Shown: positions 3,967 to 51,881, numbered from the stretch's first letter. The stretch: 64,000 nt of DNA from Patescibacteria group bacterium (GCA_035506195.1 DATJPV010000036.1:16100-80099), one strand, 5' to 3'. A program made the numbers and translations. The notes: generated by a model from the letters alone, not told the origin.

Positions 3967-4037
3967 GCGAGAGTAGTTCAGTGGCAGAACACCAGCTTCC
4001 CAAGCTGGATATGGGGGTTCGATTCCCCTCTCTCGCT
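3967..4037 (+). tRNA. tRNA-Gly (anticodon CCC)
   Basis: Cloverleaf by eye: acceptor GCGAGAG/CTCTCGC, anticodon stem CCAGC/GCTGG, loop TTCCCAA, T-loop TTCGATT, discriminator U. No encoded CCA. Confidence 0.85.
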
Positions 4038-4047
4038 TTGACTGCGT

Positions 4048-4734
4048 ATGATGCCAGATAAAAGACCAGCCTTGCCTGTAAAAACGTATGCGATATCCGG
4101 CATCATGTGCATTTTGATGGTATCCGGCTGCGCCAGTACTCCGATGGTAGTTTCACCCAAGCCGGAAGGGGTCTCCGGGGTGTATCACCGGGTGGAAAAA
4201 GGGCAGACCTTGTGGATGATCTCCCGGATCTACAATATGGACGTGGAAGAGCTGGCCAGGGTCAACCGCATATCGGATACGGCCAAGGTCGAAGCCGGCC
4301 AACAGGTTTTTATCCCCTTTGCCCAGAAGCCCTGTCCGGTCCCGGAGAAGAACCTCGGCGGCGGTTTCATCTGGCCGCTGAAAGGCAGGGTCGTCGGCGA
4401 ATTCAGCCAGACCTACGCCAATATGATCAACAAGGGCGTCAATATTCAGCCGTATTCGGGCAACACCGAGGTAGTCGCCAGCCGCAGCGGCCGGGTAGTG
4501 TTCTATGCCCCCGACTTCGACGTCTATGGTAAAACCGTTATCCTTGACCACGGCGACGGCTTCATGACGGTATATGCCCGCAATGCCGAAGTGTACGTCA
4601 AACCGGGCGACCGGGTCGAGAAGGGCAATGTCATTGCCCGGGCTGGTTCTGCCGGAAGGGACAAAGCCGTGTACCTGCATTTCGAAATACGCAAGGGGCG
4701 CCTGCCCCAGAACCCTAATTTTTATCTGCCATGA
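4048..4734 (+). CDS. LysM + M23 peptidase lipoprotein (NlpD-like)
   Basis: Lipobox MVSGC, a LysM motif (GQTLWMISRIYNMDVEELARVN) and an M23 core (ILDHGDGFMTVY...YLHFEIR). Confidence 0.85.
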   Translation: MMPDKRPALPVKTYAISGIMCILMVSGCASTPMVVSPKPEGVSGVYHRVEKGQTLWMISRIYNMDVEELARVNRISDTAKVEAGQQVFIPFAQKPCPVPEKNLGGGFIWPLKGRVVGEFSQTYANMINKGVNIQPYSGNTEVVASRSGRVVFYAPDFDVYGKTVILDHGDGFMTVYARNAEVYVKPGDRVEKGNVIARAGSAGRDKAVYLHFEIRKGRLPQNPNFYLP

Positions 4735-6320
4735 AAAGCACGTTTGTCGGTAGGAAAGATTACCTGGGGATCCTGGAGAAGCGCATCCGCGACCTCAAGG
4801 ATGGGTACCGCCAGAATATCGCGATCATCGGCGACGAGATGGTGGGCAAGACTTCCATTATTTTCCGGTTCCTCAACAAATTCTGCGACAACCGGATCAT
4901 TACACTCTATTTTGAAACTAGGCCGGAATCGACGGTTTCCTTTGCGCGCAGGTTCATCTCGGTGCTGCTGTATAATTTCTTGAGCCACAGCGCTATCCCC
5001 CTGCAAGAGGACCTGGGCTTTCTTATGCGCGTATCTTCCAAATATATCCCCGTCACGATTGAGAGAATCAACCTGATCCTGGAGGGGCTGGACAAGAGAA
5101 AGAAAAATAACCTGTTCGGCGACCTGCTTTCGTTGTGCGAAAGTATCTACCAGGAAACTTCGAAATCCTGCGTGGTCATTTTTGATGAGTTCCTGAATCT
5201 CGAAAGCCTTGATGCCAAACACCTGTATAAAGAATGGTCCCGGCTCCTGATCTCCCAGAAACACACCATGTATATCATTATCAGCTCGATGAAATACCGG
5301 ACCAAGAACGTCCTGGCCAAAGACCTCTCCCTGTTGTTCGGCAATTTTGAGGTGATCACGATCGAGCCGTTCGATATCCCCGCTTCGGGGGAATATCTGG
5401 AGCAGAGGCTTGCGGGGGTAACGCTTGAGCCTGGGCTGAAAAATTTTATCATGCATCTCACCGGCGGCTACCCCTTTTACCTGGAAGTGGTTTCCGGGGC
5501 GCTGCTGAAATCATATCAGAACAACCTCTCGGATATACTGGAAGACCTGCTGTTCGAATCCTCAGGGATATTGCACCAGCGTTTTTCGGTCTACCTTAAG
5601 CGTTTTCTGGATGGTCCGCTTGGCCAGGGCAACGGCGCCATCTTGTCGTTGATCGCCAGCGGCCAGAACAGGCTCAACGATATCGCGCATATCCTGCGCC
5701 GGAGCAAAAAGGAACTGAACTTGCATATCGGCCAGCTCATGGAGCTCGACGCCATATCGCGCAGCGGAGATTTCCTGAAGGTAAATGACCGCGTGTTTGC
5801 TTTTTGGCTAAGGTTCGTGCACCAGAACAAGATCAGCTCTCTGGCCTTCGATGCCAAGAGCCAGAAAGCCGCCTTTAAGGAGCAGATCGAAAAAATGATC
5901 CAGGAATTCATGGCGGCGGCGCAGAAGCCGTTGATCGACCGGATGGCGGAACTGTTCCGTTCGTTCTCCGACGATACGCTTCAGCTTGAGCGCAAGCGCC
6001 TGAGGCTGGCGCATTTCCGGGAGATTAAACCCATGGAGCTCAACCGCGCCGGCCTGCGGGAAGGCCTGATCGGCCGTTCCCACGACAGCCTTTGGATCGT
6101 CGCGTTCAAAAAGGACTCTCTTACCGAAGAGGATGTGGCGGAATTCGCGAAAGAGTGCAAGAAATACCGGCACAAGCTGCAAACAAAAGTTATCGTGACC
6201 CTCAGGGATATCGATGCCAACGCACGGCTGCGGGCCCTGGAGGAAAAGATCTGGACCTGGGATATCAACCGGCTCAATCAGATCTTTGATCTGTTCTCTA
6301 AGCCCCGGGTGATCGCATAG
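4731..6320 (+). CDS. AAA+ ATPase (Arch_ATPase/PF01637-like, wHTH) with extra ~160-aa C-terminal domain
   Basis: FVGRKDYL...IAIIGDEMVGKTSI Walker A and VVIFDEF Walker B, then a winged-helix-like region and an unrecognised C-terminal domain. First gene of a tightly coupled five-gene operon. Confidence 0.6.
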   Translation: MKSTFVGRKDYLGILEKRIRDLKDGYRQNIAIIGDEMVGKTSIIFRFLNKFCDNRIITLYFETRPESTVSFARRFISVLLYNFLSHSAIPLQEDLGFLMRVSSKYIPVTIERINLILEGLDKRKKNNLFGDLLSLCESIYQETSKSCVVIFDEFLNLESLDAKHLYKEWSRLLISQKHTMYIIISSMKYRTKNVLAKDLSLLFGNFEVITIEPFDIPASGEYLEQRLAGVTLEPGLKNFIMHLTGGYPFYLEVVSGALLKSYQNNLSDILEDLLFESSGILHQRFSVYLKRFLDGPLGQGNGAILSLIASGQNRLNDIAHILRRSKKELNLHIGQLMELDAISRSGDFLKVNDRVFAFWLRFVHQNKISSLAFDAKSQKAAFKEQIEKMIQEFMAAAQKPLIDRMAELFRSFSDDTLQLERKRLRLAHFREIKPMELNRAGLREGLIGRSHDSLWIVAFKKDSLTEEDVAEFAKECKKYRHKLQTKVIVTLRDIDANARLRALEEKIWTWDINRLNQIFDLFSKPRVIA

Positions 6321-6321
6321 C

Positions 6322-6813
6322 ATGGTTAAGATCGGAGTGATCTCTGATACCCATATTCCTTTTAGCGCAAGGCAGATACCCCAGAAGGTTATCGATGATT
6401 TCAAAACCGTCGATATGGTGATGGTCGCAGGCGACCTGGCTGAGATGAGCGTGCTCAAACAGTTAAAGAGCGCCTGCCCCCGCGTGCATGCGGTCTGGGG
6501 GAATATGGACGGGCCGGAGGTCAGGGCCCATCTGCCGGAGAAAGAGGTCATTACCGTCGGTAGCCACAAGATCGGCCTCATGCACGGCTACGGCCATCCG
6601 GACGGATTGCTTGCTGTCATGCGCGCTGCATTTAAGGACGACGGGGTTGACATGATCATTTTCGGCCATTCGCACAAGCCCTACAACGAAAAAAAAGACG
6701 GCATCCTGTATTTTAATCCCGGCAGCCCTACGGATACGGCATTCGCTCCGTACAATTCATACGGCATGGTCGAGATAAACGATGCCATTAACGCCAGGAT
6801 AGTGAAGCTCTGA
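6322..6813 (+). CDS. Metallophosphoesterase (YfcE/MJ0936-type phosphodiesterase)
   Basis: GVISDTHIP...GDL...GNMDG...GHSH calcineurin-like motifs. Confidence 0.8.
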   Translation: MVKIGVISDTHIPFSARQIPQKVIDDFKTVDMVMVAGDLAEMSVLKQLKSACPRVHAVWGNMDGPEVRAHLPEKEVITVGSHKIGLMHGYGHPDGLLAVMRAAFKDDGVDMIIFGHSHKPYNEKKDGILYFNPGSPTDTAFAPYNSYGMVEINDAINARIVKL

Positions 6814-7283
6814 TGGATAAACTGTGGGCCCCCTGGAGGGTCAATTACGTACAGGCGAAGAAAACGAAGGGGTGCGTTTTTTGCAAGGCTCAGCGCCGCA
6901 AAGACGCAAAGCCGGTTGTATTCAGGACCCTCTATTCAGTCTGCTTGCTTAATATTTTTCCGTATAACAACGGCCACCTGATGGTTGCCCCCCGGGCGCA
7001 TAAGCCGCAGCTGGCTGACTTAACCGACCCCGAGGCGCTGGACCTGTTACGCAGCCTGGACAGGGCGAAAAGATTATTGCAAAAAACCCTGAAGCCCGAC
7101 GGTTTTAACATCGGCATCAACGTCTCCCGCAGCGCCGGCGCCGGCATTACCGGCCACCTGCATATCCATATTGTCCCGCGCTGGCAGGGGGATACGAACT
7201 TCATGCCCGTCCTACATAACACAAAAGTGATCTCTCAGTCTTTGGAACAACTTTGCCGCATACTAAAACATGCTGACGCCTAG
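6813..7283 (+). CDS. HIT-family nucleotide hydrolase/transferase
   Basis: Histidine triad HLHIHIVPRW plus N-terminal CVFC. Its ATG overlaps the stop of the preceding gene. Confidence 0.75.
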   Translation: MDKLWAPWRVNYVQAKKTKGCVFCKAQRRKDAKPVVFRTLYSVCLLNIFPYNNGHLMVAPRAHKPQLADLTDPEALDLLRSLDRAKRLLQKTLKPDGFNIGINVSRSAGAGITGHLHIHIVPRWQGDTNFMPVLHNTKVISQSLEQLCRILKHADA

Positions 7284-8424
7284 CCGGATCCGGGAATACG
7301 AAGATACGTTTTTGGCCCCCTATGCCATGAAGAGCTGCCTTAGCCGCGGCCGGGTGCACAAGGAGCCGGAGCATGCGTATCGGTCAGCCTATCAGCGGGA
7401 CCGGGACCGGATTATCCATTCTGCGGCATTCCGCAGGCTGGTGCATAAAACCCAGGTTTTTGTGACCCATGAAGGGGATTATTACCGCACCAGGCTTACG
7501 CATACCCTGGAGGCCGCGCAGATCGCCCGGACTATCGCGACAGCCTTGAGCTTGAATGTCGACCTGACCGAGGCGACGACCCTGGCGCACGACCTGGGGC
7601 ATACGCCGTTCGGCCACTCCGGAGAGGAAGCCTTGAATGAACTTATGGCCGGCTTCGGCGGATTCAATCACAATCTCCACGGCCTGCGCGTGGTCGATAT
7701 ACTGGAAGAGCGCTACCCCAGTTTCCCGGGCCTGAATTTGACCTGGGAGGTCAGGGAAGGGATCGTCAAGCATTCTTCGGCATTTGATAAGACGGATATC
7801 CCGCCGGAGTTCAGCCCCGAAGAAATGCCGCCCCTGGAAACGCAGGTGGTGGATATTGCCGACGAGATCGCCTACGACAACCATGACCTTGATGACGGCT
7901 TGACCTCGGGCTTGCTGAAGGAGTCGGACCTGGAAAAGTTGCCGATATGGGAAAAGATCCGGGCGGGCCTTTCCAGCCAATATTCGTCCCTTGAGCCGAA
8001 GATCCGCAAGCACCTGCTTATCCGTTCGTTGATCAACATGCAGGTCACCGACCTGATCCAGGAGACGGAAAAGAATATTCATGCCCTTCGCCTGGGGTCG
8101 TGCGATGACGTAAAGAAACTGGACCGGAAGGTGATCTCGTTCAGCCAGGAAGTTTCGCAGCTGCGCAAGCCCATGCGCGAGCTTCTCGTGCGCAAGCTCT
8201 ACCACCATTATCGCGTAGTCAGGATGAGCAACAAGGCCAAACGGTTCGTAAAGGACTTGTTCACCGTATATGTGGAAAAACCAGAAGCCCTGCCGGACGA
8301 TATCCAGGCAAGGGTGCCGCGCGACGGCGTGCGGCTGGCGGTGTGCGATTACATCGCCTCAATGACCGATAGGTATGCCCTCGATGAATACAAAAAACTA
8401 TTTGAGCCCTACGAAAAGGTATAA
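7270..8424 (+). CDS. dgt: dGTP triphosphohydrolase-like HD-domain protein
   Basis: dGTPase N-terminal motif (RDRDRIIHSAAFRRLVHKTQVF...RTRLTHTLEAAQIAR) and an HD motif (HDLGHTPFGH). Confidence 0.85.
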   Translation: MLTPSRIREYEDTFLAPYAMKSCLSRGRVHKEPEHAYRSAYQRDRDRIIHSAAFRRLVHKTQVFVTHEGDYYRTRLTHTLEAAQIARTIATALSLNVDLTEATTLAHDLGHTPFGHSGEEALNELMAGFGGFNHNLHGLRVVDILEERYPSFPGLNLTWEVREGIVKHSSAFDKTDIPPEFSPEEMPPLETQVVDIADEIAYDNHDLDDGLTSGLLKESDLEKLPIWEKIRAGLSSQYSSLEPKIRKHLLIRSLINMQVTDLIQETEKNIHALRLGSCDDVKKLDRKVISFSQEVSQLRKPMRELLVRKLYHHYRVVRMSNKAKRFVKDLFTVYVEKPEALPDDIQARVPRDGVRLAVCDYIASMTDRYALDEYKKLFEPYEKV

Positions 8425-9448
8425 ACTGCTGATCTCGGCAGTCCACAGCGTCTACCGGCTGATCAGTTCGACCTTTGAATTGAAGGACCTGTTTCCGCGC
8501 CTGGCCAGGCTTCTCTGCCAGATATTCAATGCCTGCGGCTGCGAGATCGTGCTCTTTGATTCCACCAGCCGGTATTCCGTCTTCAGGTGCGAGGTAGGAG
8601 AGAGGAAGAAATATATCAGCGATAAAAAGAAAAGGATCATCGACCGCCTGGAAAAGAATATCGCCAAGCGCCCCGCGGTTGTGCGTAACGCCGAACTGCT
8701 GGCGGTGCCGTTGATCTGCGAAGATTCGGGGGGCGTGATCATCGTAAAACGCAAGAACGAACCCGCCCCGTTCGAAAGCTTCGACCAGGAAGTGTTGATG
8801 ACCCTGGCGGAACAGGTGATCGTGGCTATCCGGAACCTTCAGCTGGTCGGGGAACAGCAAAAGATCATCCTGGGAAGCATAAAATCGCTGGTTACTTTGC
8901 TGGACATGCGCGTTCCCCAGGAGTACGCGCATTCTCCGTATTTCCGCCGCCTGGTCATGTCGATCGCCCAACAGATGCACCTCGATCCGAAACAGATCGA
9001 AAGCCTTAAATACGCCAGTCTCTTGCATGACGCCGGCAAGATCGATATCCCGCCGGAGATATTGTCCAAAACCAGCAAGCTTACTCCGCGCGAATACAAG
9101 ATTGTCAAGCGGCACCCGGCCAGGGGCGCCCAGATCCTGCGTTCCTTCCAGATATTGAAACCCGTTATCCCTATTATCATGCACCACCATGAGAAATACG
9201 ACGGTACGGGCTATCCTTCGCGCCTGAAGAAGGGGCAGATCCCCGAAGGGGCGCGGGTCATGGCGGTTGCCGACGCCTTCGAGGCCATGGTGTACGGGCG
9301 GCCTTACCGGGAAAGGAAGGATATCCTTTCGGCGGTCAGGGAGATCAAGAAGAAAAGCGGCACGCAATTCGACCCCAGGGTCGTCGAGGCGTTCTTGCGC
9401 GTAGTCAAAAAGATCGATACAAAAAAGTACTTGCAACGCAATGAATGA
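8375..9448 (+). CDS. GAF-like + HD-GYP c-di-GMP phosphodiesterase
   Basis: HD-GYP motifs LLHDAGKIDIP and HHEKYDGTGYP, with an N-terminal GAF-like region. Confidence 0.8.
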   Translation: MPSMNTKNYLSPTKRYKLLISAVHSVYRLISSTFELKDLFPRLARLLCQIFNACGCEIVLFDSTSRYSVFRCEVGERKKYISDKKKRIIDRLEKNIAKRPAVVRNAELLAVPLICEDSGGVIIVKRKNEPAPFESFDQEVLMTLAEQVIVAIRNLQLVGEQQKIILGSIKSLVTLLDMRVPQEYAHSPYFRRLVMSIAQQMHLDPKQIESLKYASLLHDAGKIDIPPEILSKTSKLTPREYKIVKRHPARGAQILRSFQILKPVIPIIMHHHEKYDGTGYPSRLKKGQIPEGARVMAVADAFEAMVYGRPYRERKDILSAVREIKKKSGTQFDPRVVEAFLRVVKKIDTKKYLQRNE

Positions 9449-9459
9449 AAGTTATATAA

Positions 9460-10119
9460 TTGGCGGTATTCGTCATGGAAAAAGATAACTCGCAATTAGA
9501 ACTTTTTTCGCAGGTCAAAGGCGGCGGTTCTTTCAACAACTCGGCTCCCGCATCTTTCCTGAGTTATATCCGTGCCTACGAAAAAACGCTGCTGGTAATT
9601 ATCGGGTTCATCATTACCGGCGTTGTGGCGTTTTCTTTCGGCGTCGAAAAGGGCAGGAACTCGCAGACCGCGCCGACAGGCCAGTTGCTCGCGCTTCGGC
9701 CGGTGTCGCGTCAAACGCAGGCGCATCAGGTGGTGATGTCTCGGCAGGTACCGTACCAAGCGCCCGTGCCGCAAGTAGCGACACCTCGCCAAGTACCGTA
9801 CCAAACAACCGTACCGCAAGTAGCCACGGCTCAACCAGCCGCACCTCGACAAGTGCTGCATCAAGCGCCCGTGCCGCAAGTAGCCACGAGCCAGGCAGCC
9901 GTCGGCACGTACACTATCCAGCTGGGAAGCTTTCAGTCGAAAGAATACGCGCAGCTGGAGGCAAACGCGTTACGCAAAAGGGGGCTTTCGCCCATATTGT
10001 TATCCCAGGGTTCATATACCGTGCTATGTGTGGGAAAATTTGTCAGCAAGGACGCAGCCCAGTCTTTGCTCTCTGAACTTACAAAGCAATACAGAGGTTG
10101 CTATATCAGGAGGTTATAA
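9460..10119 (+). CDS. SPOR-domain protein (septal peptidoglycan binding) with Pro/Gln-rich tandem repeats
   Basis: An N-terminal TM helix, then repeats RQVPYQAPVPQVAT x3, then a C-terminal SPOR motif (YTIQLGSFQSKEYAQLEANALRKRG). Confidence 0.75.
   Translation: MAVFVMEKDNSQLELFSQVKGGGSFNNSAPASFLSYIRAYEKTLLVIIGFIITGVVAFSFGVEKGRNSQTAPTGQLLALRPVSRQTQAHQVVMSRQVPYQAPVPQVATPRQVPYQTTVPQVATAQPAAPRQVLHQAPVPQVATSQAAVGTYTIQLGSFQSKEYAQLEANALRKRGLSPILLSQGSYTVLCVGKFVSKDAAQSLLSELTKQYRGCYIRRL
9740..9900 (+). repeat. Imperfect ~45-60 bp coding tandem repeats inside the SPOR gene
   Basis: Three DNA copies of ...caagtaccgtaccaa...ccgtgccgcaagtagc... visible directly in the sequence. Confidence 0.7.
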
Positions 10120-10124
10120 ACGAT

Positions 10125-10412
10125 ATGTCTATTCACCCATCTTTAAACTCTTCAGATGCCGACAAGAAGCAGCGGTCAGTATTAAAACGGGCGGAACGCC
10201 TGCGTATGATGATGGATAAGAACCAATGGAAAGAAGGCGACGACGTATACGGCCTGCCGAAGATCAAGACGGTTAGAATCAAGATCAAGAAGGAAAAAGC
10301 AGCCGAAAAACCGGAAGCTGCCGCCGCCGAAGGCGCCGCTCCTGCCGCCGCAGCAGAAACAAAAGATCAGGCTGCCGCCAAGACCGCCGGAAAAGGACAG
10401 GAGAAAAAATAA
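10125..10412 (+). CDS. Small hypothetical protein with Lys/Glu/Ala-rich low-complexity tail
   Basis: GGAGG 9 nt upstream of the ATG at 10125. C-terminal AAAEGAAPAAAAETKDQAAAKTAGKGQEKK. No recognisable domain. Confidence 0.4.
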   Translation: MSIHPSLNSSDADKKQRSVLKRAERLRMMMDKNQWKEGDDVYGLPKIKTVRIKIKKEKAAEKPEAAAAEGAAPAAAAETKDQAAAKTAGKGQEKK

Positions 10413-12934: not shown

Positions 12935-13399
12935 CTATTTCTTGAGCGTAAGCTTGAGGGGTTTTCCTTCCACTTCTAATTCCACTCCATCTTTTACCAC
13001 CGCAGTTACCTTTGCATTCTCGATCGTGTCGCCTTCTTTTACTATTTGATTATTGATCAAGGCGTAACCGTCCTGGTCGGAAAAGAAGACCCCGTTAAGG
13101 ACCAGGTTTGGCCTGGCGGCAGATGGCGCAGTCGCAGGCGCGGCCACAACCGCGGCTGCGGGCGCGGCTACAGCCGCGGGGGCCCGGTTATGCGCCGCGG
13201 CGGCAATGGCCGCGGTCTTCGGCGGCTTCAACCTTGCCAGGGCCTTGACGGAGAGCGTCGAGATCAGGCCGGCCAGAAAGAATCCGCATAGCGCCACGGA
13301 CGCAAACAGCATGTAGAGCCATATTTTGCGCCCGGCAGTTACGTGAGGGGGCACAACTTTTTTTTCGACCTTTCGCAAGGCGTCGTATATAATGCTCAT
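12935..13399 (-). CDS. gspB: GspB-like general secretion pathway protein (ExeB analog)
   Basis: Characteristic GspB N-terminus MSIIYDALRK, a TM helix, an Ala-rich linker, and a small C-terminal beta domain. Overlaps the stop of the gspA-like gene. Confidence 0.6.
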   Translation of the reverse strand: MSIIYDALRKVEKKVVPPHVTAGRKIWLYMLFASVALCGFFLAGLISTLSVKALARLKPPKTAAIAAAAHNRAPAAVAAPAAAVVAAPATAPSAARPNLVLNGVFFSDQDGYALINNQIVKEGDTIENAKVTAVVKDGVELEVEGKPLKLTLKK

Positions 13400-14196
13400 T
13401 GCAGCTCCTGGAGGGATTTCTTGACCAGCGCCTGGTCGATGGTGTTGGTTTCCGCATTGAAGCCGGCCAAAAGCGCCCGGTCGCAGATAATATTGATCAT
13501 ACGGGGGATGCCGGCCGAAGAATCCGAGATTAGGGTGATCGCCTCATCGGTGAAATGCACCCTGCCGTTGGCTCCCGCGGTCTTGAGCCGGTGCATGATG
13601 TATTCCTGGATCTCTTCCCGCGCAAGCTGTGTCACGTGGTACTTTACCGCGATCCTCTGCCGCAGCTGCCGCAAGCTGGGCAGCTCCAGTTTCGCGTTGA
13701 GTTCCGGCTGGCCTACCAGTATGATCTGGATCAGTTTGTCTTTTTCCGTCTCCAGGTTCGACAGGAGGCGGACCTGTTCCAGTTGGGCGGCTTCCAGGTT
13801 CTGCGCCTCATCGATGATCAAGACGACGTTATTACCGAATGCCGAGCGCCGGATCAAAAAACGGTTCAATTCCCAGATAAAAGAGAACCTGCTTTTTTGT
13901 TTTGGCCGGATCCCGAAGTCCCGGACGATGGCCTCCAGTAATTCGATGTCGGAAAAGTTAGGGTTCAGGATAAAAGCGGTCCTGACGTCATCCTGCAGAT
14001 GCTTCAGGAAGAACCGGCAGAGCGTAGTCTTGCCCGTGCCGATCTCTCCGGTAATAACGATGATTCCTTTTCTTTCTTTGACCCCGTATACCAGGTGCGA
14101 AAGGGCTTCTTGGTGCCTGCGGCTGAGGAAAAAGAAGGAAGGGTCGGCGGTGATACTGAACGGTCTTTCTTTTAATCCGTAAAACTGGCAATACAT
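13396..14196 (-). CDS. gspA: GspA/ExeA-like AAA ATPase
   Basis: MYCQFYGLKERPFSIT start typical of ExeA, P-loop GEIGTGKTTL, DEAQ Walker B. The ORF extends to 14253, but a start at 14196 fits the family N-terminus and leaves room for the divergent promoter. Confidence 0.8.
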   Translation of the reverse strand: MYCQFYGLKERPFSITADPSFFFLSRRHQEALSHLVYGVKERKGIIVITGEIGTGKTTLCRFFLKHLQDDVRTAFILNPNFSDIELLEAIVRDFGIRPKQKSRFSFIWELNRFLIRRSAFGNNVVLIIDEAQNLEAAQLEQVRLLSNLETEKDKLIQIILVGQPELNAKLELPSLRQLRQRIAVKYHVTQLAREEIQEYIMHRLKTAGANGRVHFTDEAITLISDSSAGIPRMINIICDRALLAGFNAETNTIDQALVKKSLQELQ

Positions 14197-14237
14197 GGCA
14201 TTTTTATTATAGCAAAAAAGGTTATTTTGTAAAGTAT

Positions 14238-14266
14238 TTGACATCCAGGTCAATATATGTTATAGT
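14238..14266 (+). promoter_or_regulatory. Putative sigma70 promoter for the PilZ operon
   Basis: TTGACA (14238-14243), 17-nt spacer, TATAGT (14261-14266). Confidence 0.5.
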
Positions 14267-14283: not shown

Positions 14284-14661
14284 ATGCCACGGTGCCTCAT
14301 GATCAAAGAGGCCGGAATGGTGTTTATAATGGACGAAAAGCGGCGCTTCCCGCGAGTCAGGCTGCAGTCGCCCCTGCGCTACCAGATCCTGGGCAGGCCT
14401 GAAGCCAGAAGTGCAGTCACTAGCAATATCAGCCTCGGTGGCGTTGGTTTCACGGACTCTAGCTTTATCCCCCCATTAAGCACCCTGCAATTAGAGATAG
14501 GTTTCTTATCCTGTATGGTGTCTGCCCGTGGCAGGGTAGCCTGGGCCGCACCCTTACCGCACTCCGACCGCTACCGGCTGGGGATCGAATTTACGGGATT
14601 GGCCGAAAAAGATAAAGAGTGCCTTGCGGATTACATCGGCTTACAGATGGCAGAGGCCTAA
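14284..14661 (+). CDS. PilZ-domain protein (c-di-GMP receptor)
   Basis: RRFPRVRL...LGGVGF PilZ motifs. Confidence 0.7.
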   Translation: MPRCLMIKEAGMVFIMDEKRRFPRVRLQSPLRYQILGRPEARSAVTSNISLGGVGFTDSSFIPPLSTLQLEIGFLSCMVSARGRVAWAAPLPHSDRYRLGIEFTGLAEKDKECLADYIGLQMAEA

Positions 14662-14683: not shown

Positions 14684-14862
14684 TGGTACCGGAAGCAACT
14701 CAAGCACCAGCGCAGGCGCCGGCAGAAAAACAGACCAATTGCCCGGCCTGCAATAAGCCGCTCAAAAGGATCAAACGGTATTATCGCAACGGGAAATTCT
14801 ACTGCACCAAGAAGTGCTGGAAACAGGCGCTCAAGCCCAAAGCGGAAGAGGCCCAGAAATGA
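14684..14862 (+). CDS. Small zinc-ribbon protein (59 aa), YacG-like CPxC...CxxxC
   Basis: Not in the ORF track (under 60 aa). Has a ribosome-binding site, an NCPACNKP...FYCTKKCW motif, and a stop that overlaps the next PilZ start (ATGA at 14859-14862). Confidence 0.5.
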
Positions 14863-15215
14863 AAAAGCACCCCAAGATCGAACGCAGGCTGCACCCCCGC
14901 GTTGAAAAAACATTGCCGTTGAATATCGTCGCCAACGGCTATGACCTGGAAACTACCACCAAAAACGTCTCTTGCGTGGGCGCGTATTGCCATATCAATA
15001 AGTACATTCCCCCTTTTACCAAGATCGCAGTACGGCTTATCTTGCCTATCACCCGCGGCCTGACCCGCAAGACCTATGATGTTGAGTGCAGGGGCGTGGT
15101 GGTAAGGACCGAAGATCAGACCGACGGCGGTTTTAACGTCGCCATATTCTTTAACGGCATCAAGGACGCCCAGCGTCAAAGAATATCCCAGTATATACAT
15201 CAGTTCTTGCCGTAG
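14859..15215 (+). CDS. PilZ-domain protein
   Basis: ERRLHPRVEK...NVSCVGAY PilZ-like motifs. A start at 14859 is favoured over 14814 because of the ATGA coupling. Confidence 0.7.
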   Translation: MKKHPKIERRLHPRVEKTLPLNIVANGYDLETTTKNVSCVGAYCHINKYIPPFTKIAVRLILPITRGLTRKTYDVECRGVVVRTEDQTDGGFNVAIFFNGIKDAQRQRISQYIHQFLP

Positions 15216-19237: not shown

Positions 19238-19960
19238 ATGCGGCTTTACGGTAAAAGATCGGTCAGCGAACGGTTAAAGGCAGACCCCGCAAGCATCAAA
19301 AGGCTCTATATTGAAGAGGGGCTCCAGCGCCCCGAGATCGTATCCTTAGGGCGCAAGGCAGGCATTGCGGTCGAATGCCTGCGTTCCGGTCGCTTCGCGC
19401 AGTTGGCCCAAGGCAACCAGACGCAAGGAGTGATTGCCGAGGTCACCAAGTTTGTCTACCGTGATTTTGACGAGTTGATCAGCCAAGATCCCGCATCGGT
19501 GCTCATTTTTCTTGACCGCATCAATGACCCGCATAACCTGGGGGTTATTTTGAGGAGTTGCGCCTGCTTCGGGAATTTTTCCGTGGTTTTGCCGGGGCAT
19601 GAATCGGCGCAGGTAAACGAAACGGTCCTCAAGGTTGCCTGCGGCGCGGAAAACTATGTGCCGGTCTCCCTGATCACTAATCTTTCCGTCGCCATCCAGA
19701 AGGCGCAAAAGCAGGGGTACTGGATCGCCTCGACCGTGGTGGAAGGCGGGGATAACCCCCGGCAGGCGCGGCTTAACTTTCCGCTGGGCCTGGTATTTGG
19801 TTCGGAGGGGCAGGGGGTGCGGCCGGGCCTGTTGAAGCACATCGATTACCGGCTGACGCTGCCGATGACGGGCGCGGGGCTGTCTTTCAACGTGGCGATC
19901 GCAGTAAGTATTTTTTGTTACGAGATTTCCAGCCAAAGGCAGGCAGATGAAAAAAAATAA
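19238..19960 (+). CDS. rlmB: SpoU/TrmH-family 23S rRNA 2'-O-methyltransferase
   Basis: SPOUT motifs LDRINDPHNLGVILRSCACFG and LVFGSEGQGV. Confidence 0.8.
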   Translation: MRLYGKRSVSERLKADPASIKRLYIEEGLQRPEIVSLGRKAGIAVECLRSGRFAQLAQGNQTQGVIAEVTKFVYRDFDELISQDPASVLIFLDRINDPHNLGVILRSCACFGNFSVVLPGHESAQVNETVLKVACGAENYVPVSLITNLSVAIQKAQKQGYWIASTVVEGGDNPRQARLNFPLGLVFGSEGQGVRPGLLKHIDYRLTLPMTGAGLSFNVAIAVSIFCYEISSQRQADEKK

Positions 19961-20537
19961 ACAAACCGCCGGCAAGATCATCGATTTCTTGGCAGAGGCC
20001 GGCCAGCTCAAGCGCGTCAAACGCAGCGGCTGGTGGGTGGTAGGGATCAAGGACCCCGAAAGCGTAGCCGACCACTGTTTCCGTTGCGCGGTGATCGGTT
20101 ACATCCTGGCGAAAATGGAAAAGGCCGACGCCTGTAAGGTGCTCCTGATGGCCCTTTTCAACGATATCCACGAAGCCCGCATCAACGATCTGCATAAACT
20201 GGGGCATCGCTATATCGACTTCAAGCAGGCGGAGAAGCGCGTCTACAAAGAACAGGTGGAGCTTCTTCCGGCGCCGGTTCGCAAAGAGTTTTCCGGCGTG
20301 CGCGATGAATACGACCGCCAGGCCTCCCGGGAGGCAAAGATCGCCCGCGACGCAGACATCCTGGAATGCATCCTGCAGGCCAAAGAGTATTGCGAATTCG
20401 GCTATCCTCAGGCAAAGACTTTTATGGCGCCGGGCCGGACGTTCCTCTATAGTCCCAGCGCCAAACTCCTGTACCGGCAGCTTCGCAACTGGGATAGCCG
20501 GAAGTGGTGGCTGCATTTGACGAAGTTCGAAAGGTAA
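19947..20537 (+). CDS. HD-domain hydrolase (YfbR-like 5'-deoxynucleotidase family)
   Basis: KRSGWWVVGIKDPESVADHCFRCAVIG HD motif. Confidence 0.7.
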   Translation: MKKNKQTAGKIIDFLAEAGQLKRVKRSGWWVVGIKDPESVADHCFRCAVIGYILAKMEKADACKVLLMALFNDIHEARINDLHKLGHRYIDFKQAEKRVYKEQVELLPAPVRKEFSGVRDEYDRQASREAKIARDADILECILQAKEYCEFGYPQAKTFMAPGRTFLYSPSAKLLYRQLRNWDSRKWWLHLTKFER

Positions 20538-20543
20538 GCTATA

Positions 20544-21719
20544 ATGGGCCTGATGCGGATCGATTACAAAAAGGAATTAGAGACCGCGGCAAAGAGGATG
20601 ATCCTGGTGCATGACCCGGATGTCCTCATCAAGATGATCGTCAGGACCATCGTGCATAAGGTGCAGGTGACCCATGCCAGCATATTGCTGCACCGTCCGG
20701 ACGACGGCTCTTACCGTCTTACGGTTTCCCGCGGGTCCCTGGGGCTGAAGATCCCGATCGGGCTGGTGCGCGTCGAAAAAGAAAATCCCCTTATTTATTT
20801 TTTCAAACAGCGCAATGAACAGCTGCTTTTTAATGACCGCGTGATCATGTACGACCAGCTCCGCTCGCTCACCCGCCGGAAAAACACCGAACCGAAGCTG
20901 AAGGAACTGTTAGGGCAGGTGCTGCATCAGATGGAATTGTTCGATTCGGTCGTCTGCGTGCCTAGTATGTTCAGGGATGAGCTGTTCGGCATCCTGCTAT
21001 TGGGCCAAAAGAGCAACGGCAGGCTATTCTGCCGCGAGGAGCTTGACTTTTTCATTGCCCTTGCGTCGCATGTGACCATGGCCATACGCAACGCCCAGTT
21101 ATTCAAGGAGCTGGAGCGGCAGCTCGATAAGAAACACCAGCTTTTCATTCGCACCACCATCGCCTTTGCTGCGGCGATCGAGGCCAAGGATCATTATACC
21201 CACGGCCATACGACCAGGGTTACGAACCTGAGCCTGGAGCTTGCCAGAAGATTGAAGCGGCAGGACCGCCGGCTCTTTAACGATAAATTCTTGGAGGGCT
21301 TGCACGTGGCCAGCCTCTTGCACGATATCGGCAAGATCGGGATCTCCGAAGCCATCCTGAACAAGGAAGGGGTCCTTAGCGACGAGGAAAGGGCCCGTAT
21401 CAGAGAGCATCCTCTTATTGGGGTAGCTATCCTTAAGCCGATCAATGAGCTGGAGGACTCCATATTGGGCATTAAATATCACCATGAGAGGCATGACGGC
21501 TCCGGGTACCCCGAGGGCCTTAAGGGCGACGACATCCCGCTCATGGCTTCGATCATATCCGTCGCAGACTCCTTTGATGCCATGACCAGCACCAGGCCAT
21601 ACCGCCCCTGCCTTTACAAGGACCACGCCGTGGAAGAGATACGGCGTTTAAGCGGCCAGCAATTCAATCCTCTTGTCGCCGGCGCCCTGGTAGAACTCCA
21701 CCAGGAAGGCAGGCTTTAG
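20544..21719 (+). CDS. GAF + HD-GYP phosphodiesterase
   Basis: N-terminal GAF, then HGHTTRV...LLHDIGKIGI...HHERHDGSGYP. Confidence 0.8.
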   Translation: MGLMRIDYKKELETAAKRMILVHDPDVLIKMIVRTIVHKVQVTHASILLHRPDDGSYRLTVSRGSLGLKIPIGLVRVEKENPLIYFFKQRNEQLLFNDRVIMYDQLRSLTRRKNTEPKLKELLGQVLHQMELFDSVVCVPSMFRDELFGILLLGQKSNGRLFCREELDFFIALASHVTMAIRNAQLFKELERQLDKKHQLFIRTTIAFAAAIEAKDHYTHGHTTRVTNLSLELARRLKRQDRRLFNDKFLEGLHVASLLHDIGKIGISEAILNKEGVLSDEERARIREHPLIGVAILKPINELEDSILGIKYHHERHDGSGYPEGLKGDDIPLMASIISVADSFDAMTSTRPYRPCLYKDHAVEEIRRLSGQQFNPLVAGALVELHQEGRL

Positions 21720-33237: not shown

Positions 33238-33602
33238 CCGGAGGGAGCGGAACGTGGCTACTCCCAGATTATACGGGAGAGGAAAGTCCGGGCTCCGCAG
33301 GGCAACGTAGTGGGTAACGCCCACATGGCCAACATAGGCCAATGATTAGAGCTACAGAGACGGATTACCCCGTTCACGATTTGCCTTTAGTTTGCGAAGC
33401 AAAGTAAAGGCAGTGGGGTATGTGAAACGAGCAATCTCTACGTGGAGCAAGGCCGAATAGGAGACCAGGGGTTGCCCATCCCGTTATGAGTCTCGGGTAG
33501 GCTGCTTAATCCCGGCGGTAACGCCGGGCTTTAGAGGAATGGCCACTTTAGGAAGCGGTATTCGCATCCCACACAGAACCCGGCTTATTCTGTTCCGTCC
33601 GG
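33238..33602 (+). ncRNA. rnpB: RNase P RNA (bacterial type A)
   Basis: Universally conserved GAGGAAAGTCCGGGCTCC (P4) plus ...GGGTAGGCTGCTT... and 3' ACAGAACCCGGCTTAT elements. P1 pairing CCGGAGGGAGCGGAAC / GTTCCGTCCGG. Ends are approximate. Confidence 0.85.
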
Positions 33603-48013: not shown

Positions 48014-48786
48014 TGACAAAATATTGCCGTGCCCTGACGTGTATCCTATTGTGGTGTGCTGCGCTTATTGCGGAAGCTTACGCGTTCAGCATCGAGCCGG
48101 GCCGGATCGAACTGGCTATCCCCGCGGGCCGGCAGAGAGGCAAGACCGTTACGATAGACAATCGGGATTCGGATGAGTCCCTGCACTTGAAGATATACGC
48201 TACCGACGTGATCTTCCTGCCCGATGGTACGAATGACTTTCCGCAGGCCGGCGCTACTGCCTGGTCTTGCGTAAAATGGGTGCGGGTAACCCCCGATGAG
48301 ATCGATGTCCCCGCAAAAAAGACACAGACCGTACGCGTCAACGTCACGGTCCCGCAAGGGGCCCAGGGCGGCTATTACGGGATGCTTTTCTTTGAATCCG
48401 GCATGCCCAGCCCCGCTAAGGGGCTCAATATCAACTTCCGCGTGGGCGGCCTTGTCGATGTGTCCGTCCCGGGCACCGAACAGTTCAGCGCCAAGGTCGC
48501 GCATATCAGCCTGTCTAGCCCCAAGAAGATCGAGGTCGGGATCTTTAATGAAGGCAATGTGTTGGTCAGGCCCAAGGGCAAAGTGAAGATCATGGATGCC
48601 CGCGGCAAAAGAATAAAACAAATTGATTTTAACCCCGCGGGATGGGGAGTGCTGCCTCGCAGCCTGCGCAAACTATACGTGGACCTGGACAAGCCTTTGA
48701 CGAGCGGGCAGTATACTATCCGGGTCGAGATCAACTACGGAACGAAGTACTTGTTGGTAGGAGAATCTCCGGTGCAGGTGCAATGA
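48010..48786 (+). CDS. Periplasmic PapD-like chaperone candidate (pattern-based)
   Basis: Signal peptide. The N-terminal FSIEPGRIELAIPAGRQRGKTVTIDNRDSDESLHLKIY matches the PapD-family A1/B1 strand pattern. Two beta-rich halves. TGA overlaps the next ATG. Confidence 0.4.
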   Translation: MMTKYCRALTCILLWCAALIAEAYAFSIEPGRIELAIPAGRQRGKTVTIDNRDSDESLHLKIYATDVIFLPDGTNDFPQAGATAWSCVKWVRVTPDEIDVPAKKTQTVRVNVTVPQGAQGGYYGMLFFESGMPSPAKGLNINFRVGGLVDVSVPGTEQFSAKVAHISLSSPKKIEVGIFNEGNVLVRPKGKVKIMDARGKRIKQIDFNPAGWGVLPRSLRKLYVDLDKPLTSGQYTIRVEINYGTKYLLVGESPVQVQ

Positions 48787-51700: not shown

Positions 51701-51881
51701 CAACGCCGACGGAGAGTTCAAGTTCGAATCCCTGGCGCCGGGGCACTATGCCCTGTCGATCTCCCCGGACGGGATCCCGACGGGTTATGAACTTACCTCC
51801 AAATCGGAAATAAAAATGGACCTGGCCGCAGGGGCACAGGTCCATGATACCAACTTTGCTCTCAAGCTTTCTACCCGCTAA
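48783..51881 (+). CDS. Large outer-membrane protein: TPR-like N-term, Pro/Ala linker, Cu-amine-oxidase-N1-like domain, beta-barrel-like region, two C-terminal CnaB/SdrD-B-like beta-sandwich domains (usher-like domain order)
   Basis: Signal peptide MMGGQWPKIKKVAALAVAAVFLVSHCGFAG. A TPR-like segment (GRYADALHEFHKALMLNP), ISLFINGQEVSLEEAVLFKDGQILVPLKAIAP, about 530 aa rich in alternating Y/S/T/N/G, then two copies of GRVF.D.N.NG..D..E.G. The ORF track also starts in-frame at 48642. Confidence 0.5.
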   Translation: MMGGQWPKIKKVAALAVAAVFLVSHCGFAGVVPGAMAADYLFEVGKHFYDQGRYADALHEFHKALMLNPVHKEVLRYIGLITGAAQEVYMEKGVAVGAEAPGAPRPKRAVSPVGTPLITMPGQAPAVAPAVLPKPQKSREQSLAEALNAQEAAVHPGPQVPAKPVAPVVVPRAAVTPAPAVPAAKEEAAETEGPRLNLSAIQPAAVKKAGEISLFINGQEVSLEEAVLFKDGQILVPLKAIAPKLYYNLLDLQGGKFSLINPEGKARDIAAVLQDGKPMLDEGQIREYFSARTRYDAQAKAFYIDTQASQGLKLYVLERPPEEIQKEAQQQKVIAQATAVPEKPSVIPDAARPSLDVRGNLNYTYFKYHVLPVYHDLSSSLYGRLYDYNLAYRSEYKDINGPVKNDYTTMSLSKPGIYYGFFDQSADLYPLRLQSSEFTGIKVVRSRNELTNTTLWGGQTENTIAGTSGSVKYLGKLFGASQDFSPIYWLHLKGGMLYTDNTADQPSQVGTTSYPRQNFVTYSNIALQLPQSTTLTLSGAHCYYYPDYAPDSVAIQDWDWRIGTNTNKPRYSLGFAYERVGENYVSIGDSGIYQDYQGWDLYGGWRPTDHWSIFTNASQYHDNVSDDPQSVTTYASNYGLSSAYRITGDQTVNLMYNHFVSNPEGPAAGPSGVSNVYRIDYFLPLFYQVRGSLNYALTHSDSGGSFDYDAPSIGGTLFRSFGQGSSWYLSQQATNTLYRNRPDSHDYTTTFNLYYAINPLLAAYFNASYVRNDTDGAHSTNQLSGALGTRYSLFPDTTLSFEYSINSYDLRTERDRWPKSWSMLFYVAQGFQIKTSPNFGTLEGRVFQDLNDNGRWDSGEPGVEGALVYLDDRREATTDARGYFKINYMNPIPQKVYLDLATVPPEWMTAQTEQWVQVKPRRASTVVFALRKAAGIKGRVFVDQNGDGIFQETEEPLESVVLKLSPGDHITQTNADGEFKFESLAPGHYALSISPDGIPTGYELTSKSEIKMDLAAGAQVHDTNFALKLSTR

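What the first reader, a model, noticed from the sequence alone, without database searches (positions are those of the whole stretch)
4731..9448. Tightly coupled operon: Arch_ATPase / YfcE phosphodiesterase / HIT / dGTPase / GAF-HD-GYP
Five genes are joined by overlapping or adjacent stop/start codons (6320/6322, ATGA at 6813, 14-nt overlap at 7270, overlap at 8375). Four are nucleotide hydrolases with different substrate classes (phosphodiester, dinucleoside polyphosphate/NMP-adduct, dNTP, c-di-GMP). The leading gene is a wHTH-containing ATPase that is usually a solitary gene. dGTPase/dNTPase homologs are established anti-phage effectors (dNTP depletion). The arrangement could be either a nucleotide-pool or second-messenger housekeeping operon or a nucleotide-depletion or signal-degrading module. 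I cannot distinguish these from sequence alone.
Basis: partly seen in the sequence, partly recalled or inferred. Interest (0 to 1): 0.55.

Follow-up and report, generated by a model that had tools for sequence, protein, structure and literature searches.

The report
Conserved Omnitrophota ATPase and nucleotide-hydrolase operon
The five tightly packed genes are real, but they form a vertically inherited housekeeping gene string found across the candidate phylum Omnitrophota (an uncharacterised ATPase followed by enzymes that break down Ap4A-type dinucleotides, dNTPs and cyclic-di-GMP), not a mobile anti-phage module.

Summary
All five ORFs and their overlaps exist as described, and the four hydrolases have intact active-site motifs. 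Tight spacing is not distinctive here: the median same-strand gap in the window is 3 nt. The upstream LysM-M23 peptidase gene also overlaps the ATPase start (ATGA).

The window comes from an Omnitrophota MAG. The 529-aa ATPase belongs to a family found in at least 578 species genomes, always about 540 aa long.

In close relatives, a collinear block of at least 16 genes (PFK to AroB) surrounds the five genes. In distant clades (ATPase 24-35% identical) the flanks differ, with OmpA and the mur/dcw genes downstream, yet ATPase→HIT→(dGTPase)→GAF-HD-GYP stays contiguous. I therefore read this core as a real, probably co-transcribed unit. YfcE occurs only in one arrangement, and HIT and dGTPase are lost in some lineages.

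The dGTPase passes the housekeeping NCBIfam equivalog model and fails the anti-phage model. Its best solved relative is Thermus TT1383. No relatives turned up in viral contigs, no mobile or defence genes lie nearby, and sequence conservation matches that of core enzymes.

The ATPase is a PF01637-type AAA+/STAND-like fold with a winged helix and a C-terminal restriction-endonuclease-like domain that lacks a conserved catalytic motif.

Verdict: an ordinary housekeeping nucleotide and second-messenger turnover operon. The ATPase family is uncharacterised and modestly interesting.

The parts
3967..4037 (+). tRNA-Gly(CCC), the conserved 5' neighbour of the unit, 10 nt upstream of the M23 gene
   Evidence: ARAGORN and Rfam tRNA at 71 bits. 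The same tRNA sits at the same place in 32/32 close-clade loci and in distant loci L105, L147 and L156.
4048..4734 (+). LysM + Peptidase_M23 (NlpD-like) gene. Its stop overlaps the ATPase start (ATGA).
   Evidence: Pfam and the junction sequence. Present upstream of the ATPase in 89/90 close-clade loci but only 12/48 distant loci.
4731..6320 (+). 529-aa P-loop ATPase of an Omnitrophota-wide family: a PF01637-type AAA+/STAND-like core with a winged helix (about residues 1-370) and a C-terminal domain
5844..6317 (+). C-terminal domain of the ATPase (residues 372-529): PD-(D/E)xK restriction-endonuclease-like fold without a conserved catalytic motif
6322..6813 (+). YfcE/MJ0936-type metallophosphoesterase (163 aa)
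   Evidence: Metallophos_2 at 124 bits and TIGR00040 at 121.5 bits against a cut-off of 56.25. Metal-binding motifs intact. Present in 65/65 close loci and 4/29 distant loci.
6813..7283 (+). HIT protein of the Ap4A-phosphorylase-like branch (156 aa)
   Evidence: HIT at 57.8 bits. Best PDB hits are the Ap4A phosphorylases 3ano and 3wo5 at about 1e-31. HLHIHIV motif present. Present in 55/65 close and 26/29 distant loci.
7270..8424 (+). TT1383-type dNTP/dGTP triphosphohydrolase (384 aa)
   Evidence: NF002326 equivalog at 496 bits against a cut-off of 390, and the anti-phage model NF041026 at 240 against 400. Matches 2dqb at 1e-103 over the full length. Present in 65/65 close and 19/29 distant loci.
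8375..9448 (+). GAF + HD-GYP cyclic-dinucleotide phosphodiesterase (357 aa; probable start at 8384)
   Evidence: HD_5 at 149.9 bits. GAF at 22.5 bits against a cut-off of 22.4. HD and HHEKYDGTGYP motifs present. PDB matches are 4mcw, 5z7c and 4r8z. Present in 65/65 close and 28/29 distant loci.
9460..10119 (+). SPOR-domain gene: the downstream neighbour in this arrangement and the probable 3' boundary of the unit
   Evidence: Pfam SPOR. A promoter-like site lies at 9431-9460, with 10 of 12 consensus positions matched, a consensus match only. This gene is replaced by OmpA and the mur genes in distant clades.

Best explanation
This is a vertically inherited core-genome gene string of Omnitrophota: tRNA-Gly(CCC), LysM-M23 peptidase, ATPase, YfcE phosphodiesterase, Ap4A-phosphorylase-like HIT, TT1383-type dNTPase, GAF-HD-GYP.

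What is shown:
- The enzymes belong to these families and have intact catalytic motifs.
- The string lies inside a large collinear block of central-metabolism and cell-envelope genes.
- The ATPase→HIT→(dGTPase)→HD-GYP core remains contiguous in distant clades whose flanks differ.
- The organism uses c-di-GMP. The window contains PilZ genes, a c-di-GMP-I riboswitch and a second HD-GYP gene.

What is inferred:
- The core is one transcription unit whose products clear nucleotide-derived molecules. HIT would remove Ap4A-type dinucleoside polyphosphates, the dGTPase would trim dNTPs, and HD-GYP (perhaps with YfcE) would degrade c-di-GMP. Together they would trim nucleotide pools and reset nucleotide signals in step with growth and the cell cycle.
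- The ATPase is an ATP-dependent switch with a winged helix and a degenerate nuclease-fold domain. It most likely acts as a DNA-binding regulator or an assembly factor for this unit, and not as an enzyme acting on the same substrates.

It is not a phage-defence island.
For: Five lines of evidence support this.

1. Family assignments and motifs hold up.

2. The taxonomic range is wide. At least 578 GTDB species genomes encode a relative. Of the 80 loci kept, 62 are titled Omnitrophota or Omnitrophica, 17 'uncultured Planctomycetales' and one 'bacterium', and all 80 share the Omnitrophota gene order. There are 230 clusters at 50% identity with E<1e-30, nearly all about 540 aa and aligned end to end. 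Distant members that carry a taxon name are also Omnitrophota.

3. Close-clade synteny is extensive. Among 65 loci with at least 5 kb downstream, YfcE, dGTPase and HD-GYP are each present in 65/65 and HIT in 55/65. DHQS is present in 57/57, ThiC in 52/52 and PFK in 52/52.

4. In distant clades (ATPase 35% identical or less), HIT is present in 26/29, dGTPase in 19/29 and HD-GYP in 28/29. By contrast DHQS is present in 0/24, ThiC in 3/25 and PFK in 5/25. After dereplication at 60% identity (18 clusters), HD-GYP is present in 17, dGTPase in 14 and HIT in at least 13. In these clades the downstream genes are OmpA, MurE, MurF, MraY, MurD and FtsW, and the upstream genes encode an OmpR-type regulator, a histidine kinase and PTS-EIIA. 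ThyA is inserted inside the string in L167 and L170, which fits a deoxynucleotide theme.

5. The features are those of a core region. The identity of ATPase, HIT, dGTPase and HD-GYP to their close-clade orthologues (medians 59, 60, 69 and 65%) is like that of ThiC (66%) and AroB (56%). No relatives occur in viral contigs. The rest of the window encodes DnaG, RpoD, RNase P RNA, LepA, GatA and aromatic amino-acid biosynthesis genes. GC content is uniform.

c-di-GMP signalling is present: two PilZ genes and a c-di-GMP-I riboswitch at 64 bits. Published work supports a housekeeping role for this kind of enzyme. TT1383 is a broad dNTPase, and Caulobacter Dgt/FssC promotes G1-to-S progression without affecting phage ΦCbK (PMC11071499).
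Against: - No transcript data exist. Promoter-like and terminator-like sites occur at chance frequency, so co-transcription is inferred only.
- The 'core persists while flanks differ' argument may rest on only one or two ancestral rearrangements. The big block is itself very old, because L168, with an ATPase only 30% identical, keeps all of it.
- Individual members are dispensable. HIT is absent in about 10/65 close loci, YfcE in most distant loci, dGTPase in about a third of distant loci, and L169 keeps only ATPase plus dGTPase.
- Substrates of all four hydrolases are inferred from family membership.
- The role of the ATPase is inference from its fold alone.
Confidence: 0.7

Rival explanations
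1. Passive synteny only. The five genes are neighbours because this streamlined genome packs unrelated housekeeping genes head to tail and Omnitrophota gene order is very stable. There would be no functional coupling among them or with the ATPase.
For: Tight spacing occurs across the whole window, with a median gap of 3 nt. In close relatives the collinearity extends equally to 16 or more unrelated genes, from PFK to AroB, and persists even at 30% ATPase identity (L168). HIT, YfcE and dGTPase are each lost in some lineages.
Against: In the alternative arrangement both flanks are replaced, yet ATPase-HIT-(dGTPase)-HD-GYP stays contiguous and in the same order in 17/18 dereplicated distant clusters. 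The breakpoints fall at the ends of this segment. ThyA, another deoxynucleotide enzyme, is inserted within the string in two lineages.
Confidence: 0.2
2. Anti-phage or nucleotide-depletion module. A STAND-like ATPase would sense infection and release or activate the dNTPase and the other hydrolases, which would deplete dNTPs or destroy phage-related or immune nucleotide signals.
Against: The dGTPase fails NCBIfam's anti-phage model (240 bits against 400) and passes the housekeeping equivalog. The string has a fixed location in a core syntenic block in every relative examined, not a patchy distribution. Sequence conservation is like that of core enzymes. No mobile-element or other defence genes lie nearby, and no relatives occur in viral contigs. 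The ATPase lacks the repeat-type sensor domain of Avs and NLR proteins, and its nuclease-fold domain lacks a conserved D...(D/E)xK motif.
Confidence: 0.05
3. Cell-cycle and envelope coupling device. The Orc1/Cdc6-like ATPase would bind DNA and couple deoxynucleotide and second-messenger levels to division and peptidoglycan remodelling.
Against: Adjacency to envelope genes could be coincidental in a densely packed genome. M23 is absent upstream in most distant loci (12/48). There is no direct evidence of DNA binding or of a division phenotype.
Confidence: 0.12

Closest known systems
Archaeal PF01637 (ATPase_2 / 'Arch_ATPase') proteins: P. abyssi PABY2304 (PDB 2qen) and S. solfataricus SSO1545 (PDB 2fna)
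   Different: Only 17-19% identical, and below the Pfam gathering score (28.6 against 33.2). This protein carries an extra 158-residue PD-(D/E)xK-like domain without a conserved catalytic motif. As far as taxon labels go, the family is bacterial and confined to Omnitrophota. It has a fixed gene neighbourhood. The function of the archaeal proteins is itself unknown.
Thermus thermophilus TT1383 dNTP triphosphohydrolase (PDB 2dqb) and housekeeping Dgt enzymes such as Caulobacter FssC
   Same: Full-length match (residues 7-377 against 8-374, E 1e-103). Passes the NCBIfam equivalog NF002326. HD motif intact.
   Different: Activity, substrate range and allosteric activation are untested here. It is embedded in a conserved string with HIT and HD-GYP genes.
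Anti-phage dGTPases (single-gene dNTP-depletion defence; NCBIfam NF041026, PADLOC dGTPase)
   Same: Same HD-domain dGTPase superfamily, with a strong match to the PADLOC family-level model.
   Different: Scores 240 bits against the cut-off of 400 for the anti-phage model, in two partial stretches. It lies in a core syntenic position, not in a variable island.
Mycobacterium tuberculosis Rv2613c Ap4A phosphorylase (PDB 3ano, 3wo5), a HIT-family enzyme
   Same: Best solved relatives (about 1e-31, residues 2-151). Histidine-triad motif present.
   Different: Below the NCBIfam equivalog cut-off (129 against 290). It lacks the roughly 40-residue N-terminal extension of the mycobacterial enzyme. Whether it acts as a phosphorylase or a hydrolase is unknown.
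HD-GYP phosphodiesterases PmGH (PDB 4mcw), PA4781 (4r8z) and V-cGAP3 (5z7c)
   Same: HD_5 domain with HD and HHExxDGxGYP motifs. An N-terminal sensor domain is present.
   Different: The sensor is a marginal GAF domain instead of REC. Specificity for c-di-GMP versus 3'3'-cGAMP cannot be told from sequence.
STAND defence ATPases (Avs, NLR-like)
   Different: No C-terminal repeat sensor and no recognisable active effector. The protein is 529 aa against well over 1000 aa for typical Avs proteins. It is conserved, single-copy and at a fixed locus.

Membership tests
PF01637 ATPase_2 (archaeal-type AAA+ ATPase) | Sequence score at or above the Pfam gathering threshold | tested here: not met
   28.6 bits against a cut-off of 33.2 for the window protein. 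Some orthologues do carry a precomputed PF01637 hit.
PF01637 ATPase_2 (archaeal-type AAA+ ATPase) | P-loop core with Walker A and Walker B followed by a winged helix, with a fold matching solved members | tested here: met
STAND / Avs-type defence NTPase | C-terminal repeat sensor (TPR/WD40/LRR) plus an effector domain; patchy distribution in defence islands | tested here: not met
   The C-terminus is a single 158-residue nuclease-fold domain. The locus is fixed and syntenic in all relatives.
PD-(D/E)xK nuclease (C-terminal domain of the ATPase) | Restriction-endonuclease-like fold | tested here: met
PD-(D/E)xK nuclease (C-terminal domain of the ATPase) | Conserved catalytic D...(D/E)xK residues | tested here: not met
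   D452 in 7/31 sequences, position 458 is A/Q/G, and K460 in 18/31. The conserved E466 and D468 lie at non-canonical positions.
Housekeeping dGTP/dNTP triphosphohydrolase (NCBIfam NF002326, TT1383 type) | Score above the equivalog cut-off, HD motif, and a full-length match to a characterised member | tested here: met
   496 bits against 390. Matches 2dqb at 1e-103 over the full length. HD motif present.
Anti-phage dGTPase (NCBIfam NF041026) | Score above the model cut-off | tested here: not met
   240 bits against 400, in two partial stretches.
Anti-phage dGTPase (NCBIfam NF041026) | Protection against phage | not testable with these tools
   Needs a phage challenge experiment.
HD-GYP cyclic-dinucleotide phosphodiesterase | HD_5 domain with HD and HHExxDGxGYP motifs | tested here: met
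   149.9 bits against 27.2. LLHDAGK and HHHEKYDGTGYP are present.
HD-GYP cyclic-dinucleotide phosphodiesterase | Hydrolysis of c-di-GMP (or cGAMP) | not testable with these tools
   Indirect support only: PilZ genes and a c-di-GMP-I riboswitch in the window.
GAF domain | Pfam GAF at or above the gathering score | tested here: inconclusive
   22.5 bits against 22.4 for the window protein. The match is clearer in a distant orthologue, with GAF_2 at 34.9 bits against 28.6.
HIT family, Ap4A-phosphorylase branch | Histidine triad HxHxHxx, and closest similarity to Ap4A phosphorylases | tested here: met
   GHLHIHIV is present. The top PDB hits are 3ano and 3wo5.
HIT family, Ap4A-phosphorylase branch | NCBIfam equivalog NF052622 cut-off | tested here: not met
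   129 bits against 290.
YfcE/MJ0936 phosphodiesterase subfamily (TIGR00040) | Score above the cut-off and metal-binding motifs present | tested here: met
   121.5 bits against 56.25. Motifs intact. The E. coli YfcE equivalog NF006988 is not met (48.9 against 117).

The most novel reading that the evidence does not exclude
The phylum-specific ATPase, which combines an Orc1/Cdc6- and STAND-like core, a winged helix and an inactivated nuclease fold, is a nucleotide-responsive DNA-binding switch. It would coordinate the turnover of dNTPs, Ap4A-type alarmones and c-di-GMP with cell division and envelope growth in Omnitrophota. That would explain why it is always placed immediately upstream of HIT, dGTPase and HD-GYP, and next to NlpD/SPOR or dcw genes.
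Probability: 0.12. Interest if true: 0.55.

Novelty: new member of a known kind. Interest (0 to 1): 0.27.

Why it matters
The main value is as a caution. A family-level defence model (the PADLOC dGTPase HMM, E 3e-99) matches this gene strongly, yet comparative genomics shows it is a fixed core gene. Automated 'dGTPase defence' calls in uncultivated phyla should be checked against synteny and against the housekeeping and anti-phage NCBIfam models.

There is a second point. Omnitrophota are uncultivated and poorly understood. The analysis picks out a phylum-wide, well-conserved and completely uncharacterised 540-aa ATPase family that is consistently linked to nucleotide and second-messenger hydrolases. 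That link gives a concrete, testable handle on its function, but it does not open a major question.

Tried and rejected
- The 40-sequence alignment A1 was too diverse for the search for related loci. A narrower alignment, A2, worked.
- A first greedy longest-ORF gene caller picked antisense ORFs over the dGTPase and HD-GYP genes. I replaced it with a codon-usage-scored caller for the spacing background.
- The viral-contig scan found no relatives.
- The promoter and terminator scan gave counts at chance level and cannot define the transcription unit.
- I looked for a conserved operator or leader upstream of the ATPase in loci with an intergenic gap. One narrow clade shares a leader of about 110 nt. 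It has no Rfam match and only a weak stem (-9 kcal/mol, little covariation). The window has no equivalent, because M23 overlaps the ATPase start.
- The afdb50 fold library was unavailable.
- I considered and rejected an active nuclease effector (catalytic residues are not conserved) and an Avs-like sensor (no repeat domain).
- I considered horizontal acquisition. GC content is uniform and there are no mobile-element genes.
Full report
**The observation**

I read the junctions from the sequence.
- ATPase to YfcE: a 1-nt gap (TAG, C, ATG).
- HIT to dGTPase: a 14-nt overlap.
- dGTPase to HD-GYP: a 50-nt overlap from the ATG at 8375, or 41 nt from the ATG at 8384. The 41-nt figure is the overlap seen in gene calls of homologous loci.

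**Family assignments**

| Gene | Best family evidence |
|---|---|
| ATPase | ATPase_2 28.6 bits, below the 33.2 cut-off; no NCBIfam hit |
| YfcE | Metallophos_2 124 bits; TIGR00040 121.5 against 56.25 |
| HIT | HIT 57.8 bits |
| dGTPase | HD plus HD_assoc |
| HD-GYP | HD_5 149.9 bits; N-terminal 166 residues just reach the GAF threshold (22.5 against 22.4) |

A distant orthologue of the HD-GYP protein has a clearer GAF_2 match (34.9 bits against 28.6). All four hydrolases keep their catalytic motifs.

**Is the spacing more than chance would give?**

It is not. I made a codon-usage-scored gene call of the whole window. It gave 72 genes, 63 of them on the + strand, and 58 same-strand junctions. 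The median gap is 3 nt, 43% of gaps are 0 or less, and 76% are 20 nt or less. Because the longest ORF was always taken, overlaps are somewhat overestimated.

Runs of near-zero gaps occur elsewhere in the window. The unit boundaries also cannot be seen from the window alone.
- The upstream LysM-M23 peptidase gene (4048-4734) overlaps the ATPase start by ATGA.
- A tRNA-Gly(CCC) gene lies 10 nt upstream of the M23 gene.
- A SPOR-domain gene starts 12-26 nt after the HD-GYP stop.
- Promoter-like and terminator-like matches occur at chance frequency. The only notable one is a promoter-like match (10 of 12 positions) at 9431-9460, just before the SPOR gene.

**The organism and the ATPase family**

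An identical ATPase is on record from a 109-kb MAG contig that NCBI labels 'Patescibacteria group bacterium'. Every other relative with a taxon label is Omnitrophota. The best 120 homologues are 62-84% identical and 528-537 aa long.

A scan of one genome per GTDB species found at least 578 genomes with a relative. Of the 80 loci kept, 62 are titled Omnitrophota or Omnitrophica, 17 'uncultured Planctomycetales' and one 'bacterium'.

An exhaustive search of 50%-identity representatives found 230 clusters at E<1e-30. Nearly all are about 540 aa long and align end to end, down to about 26% identity. Distant representatives that carry a name are Omnitrophota. No relative occurs in IMG/VR viral contigs.

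**Gene neighbourhood in close relatives**

Stored gene calls and tblastn of 16 window proteins against 83 loci show one collinear block: PFK, SIS, cytidylyltransferase, ThiD2, ThiC, tRNA-Gly, LysM-M23, ATPase, YfcE, HIT, dGTPase, HD-GYP, SPOR, a small ORF, SH3, M50 and AroB. Further upstream lie EF-P, AccB, AccC and Asp23. Further downstream lie PilZ, DUF4416 and a radical-SAM gene.

The counts below are for loci whose ATPase is at least 50% identical to the window's and that have enough flanking sequence.

| Gene | Present |
|---|---|
| YfcE | 65/65 |
| dGTPase | 65/65 |
| HD-GYP | 65/65 |
| HIT | 55/65 |
| AroB | 57/57 |
| ThiC | 52/52 |
| PFK | 52/52 |
| M23 | 89/90 |

The tRNA-Gly(CCC) gene is at the same position in 32/32 loci checked. 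Linkage in close relatives is therefore real, but it is no more specific to the five genes than to a dozen unrelated housekeeping genes.

**Gene neighbourhood in distant relatives**

This is the informative part. I seeded a metagenome scan with a distant subfamily and made targeted look-ups. Together they gave 58 loci whose ATPase is 24-35% identical to the window's. The counts below are for loci with enough flanking sequence.

| Gene | Present |
|---|---|
| HD-GYP | 28/29 |
| HIT | 26/29 |
| dGTPase | 19/29 |
| YfcE | 4/29 |
| AroB | 0/24 |
| ThiC | 3/25 |
| PFK | 5/25 |
| M23 | 12/48 |

I dereplicated these loci at 60% ATPase identity, which left 18 clusters. HD-GYP is present in 17, dGTPase in 14 and HIT in at least 13.

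In these clades the string is ATPase, HIT, (dGTPase), then a longer GAF-HD-GYP of about 520 aa. It is followed by OmpA, a 162-aa ORF, and MurE, MurF, MraY, MurD and FtsW. It is preceded by an OmpR-type regulator, a histidine kinase and a PTS-EIIA-like gene. Both flanks have therefore been exchanged while the ATPase-to-HD-GYP segment stayed intact, which is what one expects of a functional unit.

Two cautions apply.
- The large block is itself ancient. L168, at 30% ATPase identity, keeps all of it. The contrast may therefore rest on only one or two rearrangement events.
- Members are individually dispensable. HIT is lost in about 10 close loci, and L169 keeps only ATPase plus dGTPase.

One extra hint comes from L167 and L170. 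There, thymidylate synthase is inserted between YfcE and HIT, which fits a deoxynucleotide theme.

**Defence or housekeeping?**

- The dGTPase passes the NCBIfam equivalog NF002326 (496 bits against 390). It fails the anti-phage model NF041026 (240 against 400, two partial stretches).
- Its best solved relative is T. thermophilus TT1383, matched over the full length (1e-103). All other solved dGTPases score far lower. TT1383 is a broad, allosterically activated dNTPase.
- Caulobacter Dgt/FssC promotes G1-to-S progression and does not affect ΦCbK infection (PMC11071499).
- The PADLOC dGTPase HMM does match strongly (E 3e-99). An automated run might therefore call a single-gene defence system. 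I read this as a family-level cross-hit.
- The other PADLOC hits are weak: HIT against ThsC at 39.7 bits, and the rest at E above 1e-4.
- Orthologue identity in the close clade is like that of core enzymes. Medians are ATPase 59%, HIT 60%, dGTPase 69% and HD-GYP 65%, against ThiC 66% and AroB 56%.
- GC content is uniform.
- The rest of the window is core genome: DnaG, RpoD, RNase P RNA, YebC, PheA, DAHP synthase, LepA and GatA.
- Nothing suggests a mobile or variable island.

**The ATPase**

An AlphaFold2 model built from a 40-sequence alignment is confident (pLDDT 90.9, pTM 0.87).

The canonical catalytic positions are not conserved. D452 occurs in 7/31 sequences, there is no acidic residue at position 458, and K460 occurs in 18/31. 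In contrast W455 is invariant, E466 occurs in 28/31 and D468 in 25/31.

I infer an ATP-driven switch with a DNA-binding winged helix and a degenerate nuclease-fold module. It is more likely a regulator or an assembly factor than an enzyme acting on the neighbours' substrates.

**The other enzymes and the signalling context**

- The HIT protein's best solved relatives are the mycobacterial Ap4A phosphorylases 3ano and 3wo5 (about 1e-31).
- The HD-GYP protein matches PmGH (4mcw), V-cGAP3 (5z7c) and PA4781 (4r8z).
- The organism clearly uses c-di-GMP. Two PilZ genes lie 5 kb downstream. A c-di-GMP-I riboswitch is at 52560-52637 on the minus strand (64.2 bits against a gathering score of 35).
- A second GAF-HD-GYP paralogue lies at 20544-21719, preceded by a YfbR-like 5'-deoxynucleotidase.

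**Conclusion**

The best-supported reading is a vertically inherited housekeeping unit for turnover of nucleotide-derived molecules, headed by an uncharacterised ATPase specific to Omnitrophota. The defence reading is not supported.

The enzyme families, the synteny and the fold assignments are shown. Co-transcription, the substrates and the ATPase's regulatory role are inferred.

Noticed in passing
window 52560-52637 (- strand), with ORFs 52471-52208 and 52106-51885: A c-di-GMP-I riboswitch (64.2 bits, gathering score 35) is followed by a terminator-like hairpin with a T-run. Two small ORFs of 87 and 73 aa follow, with no significant Pfam match. The second looks like a secreted or lipoprotein-like peptide.
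   Followed up: partly
window 19947-20537 and 20544-21719 (+): A second pairing of an HD nucleotidase with a GAF-HD-GYP gene. A YfbR-like 5'-deoxynucleotidase (HD_3, 99 bits) is followed 6 nt later by a 391-aa GAF-HD-GYP paralogue (HD_5 114 bits, GAF 27.9 bits).
   Followed up: no
window 3967-4037 (+): A tRNA-Gly(CCC) gene lies between thiC and the M23 gene. It is conserved at the same position in 32/32 close-clade loci and in three distant loci. In L105 it directly precedes the ATPase.
   Followed up: yes
window 14284-14661 and 14814-15215 (+): Two adjacent PilZ-domain genes (c-di-GMP receptors) lie about 5 kb downstream of the HD-GYP gene. The pair is also present in relatives L002, L003 and L168.
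   Followed up: partly
window 4731-6320; protein P0001: The identical protein is deposited at NCBI as 'Patescibacteria group bacterium' (VMD52_06350). Gene order and 55-85% protein identities across 16 genes place the contig in Omnitrophota, so the taxonomic label is probably wrong.
   Followed up: partly
window 10098-10412 (+): A 104-aa Lys/Ala-rich ORF with no Pfam match lies between the SPOR and SH3 genes. It is nevertheless conserved at 52-86% identity across Omnitrophota loci.
   Followed up: no
L167 10127-10951; L170 10122-10961: In two distant lineages thymidylate synthase (ThyA) is inserted between YfcE and HIT inside the string. L167 also has a UvrD/PDDEXK_1 helicase-nuclease gene between HD-GYP and SPOR.
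   Followed up: partly
L119, L100 and L101 about 9880-10012; L096 9877-10009; L097 1385-1517; L103 1498-1630: One distant clade shares a conserved leader of about 110 nt upstream of the ATPase. It has no Rfam match and only a weak predicted stem with little covariation. It could be a regulatory element, or simply shared ancestry.
   Followed up: partly
window 12935-14253 (- strand): An ExeA-like AAA_22 ATPase gene and a T2SS-C-like gene form one of the few minus-strand interruptions in the window. The same pair is present in some relatives (L002, L169) and absent in others (L001).
   Followed up: no
window 33244-33600 (+) and 48642-51881 (+): An RNase P RNA of class A (176 bits) is present. 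Separately, a 1079-aa ORF has its only Pfam match in a C-terminal SdrD_B/CarboxypepD_reg-like domain, leaving about 980 residues unannotated.
   Followed up: no
L009, L018, L021, L024, L029, L036, L039, L046, L057, L061, L068, L073: The HIT gene is cleanly absent from the string in about a sixth of close-clade loci, where YfcE is followed directly by the dGTPase. HIT is therefore dispensable there, or it is encoded elsewhere in those genomes.
   Followed up: partly
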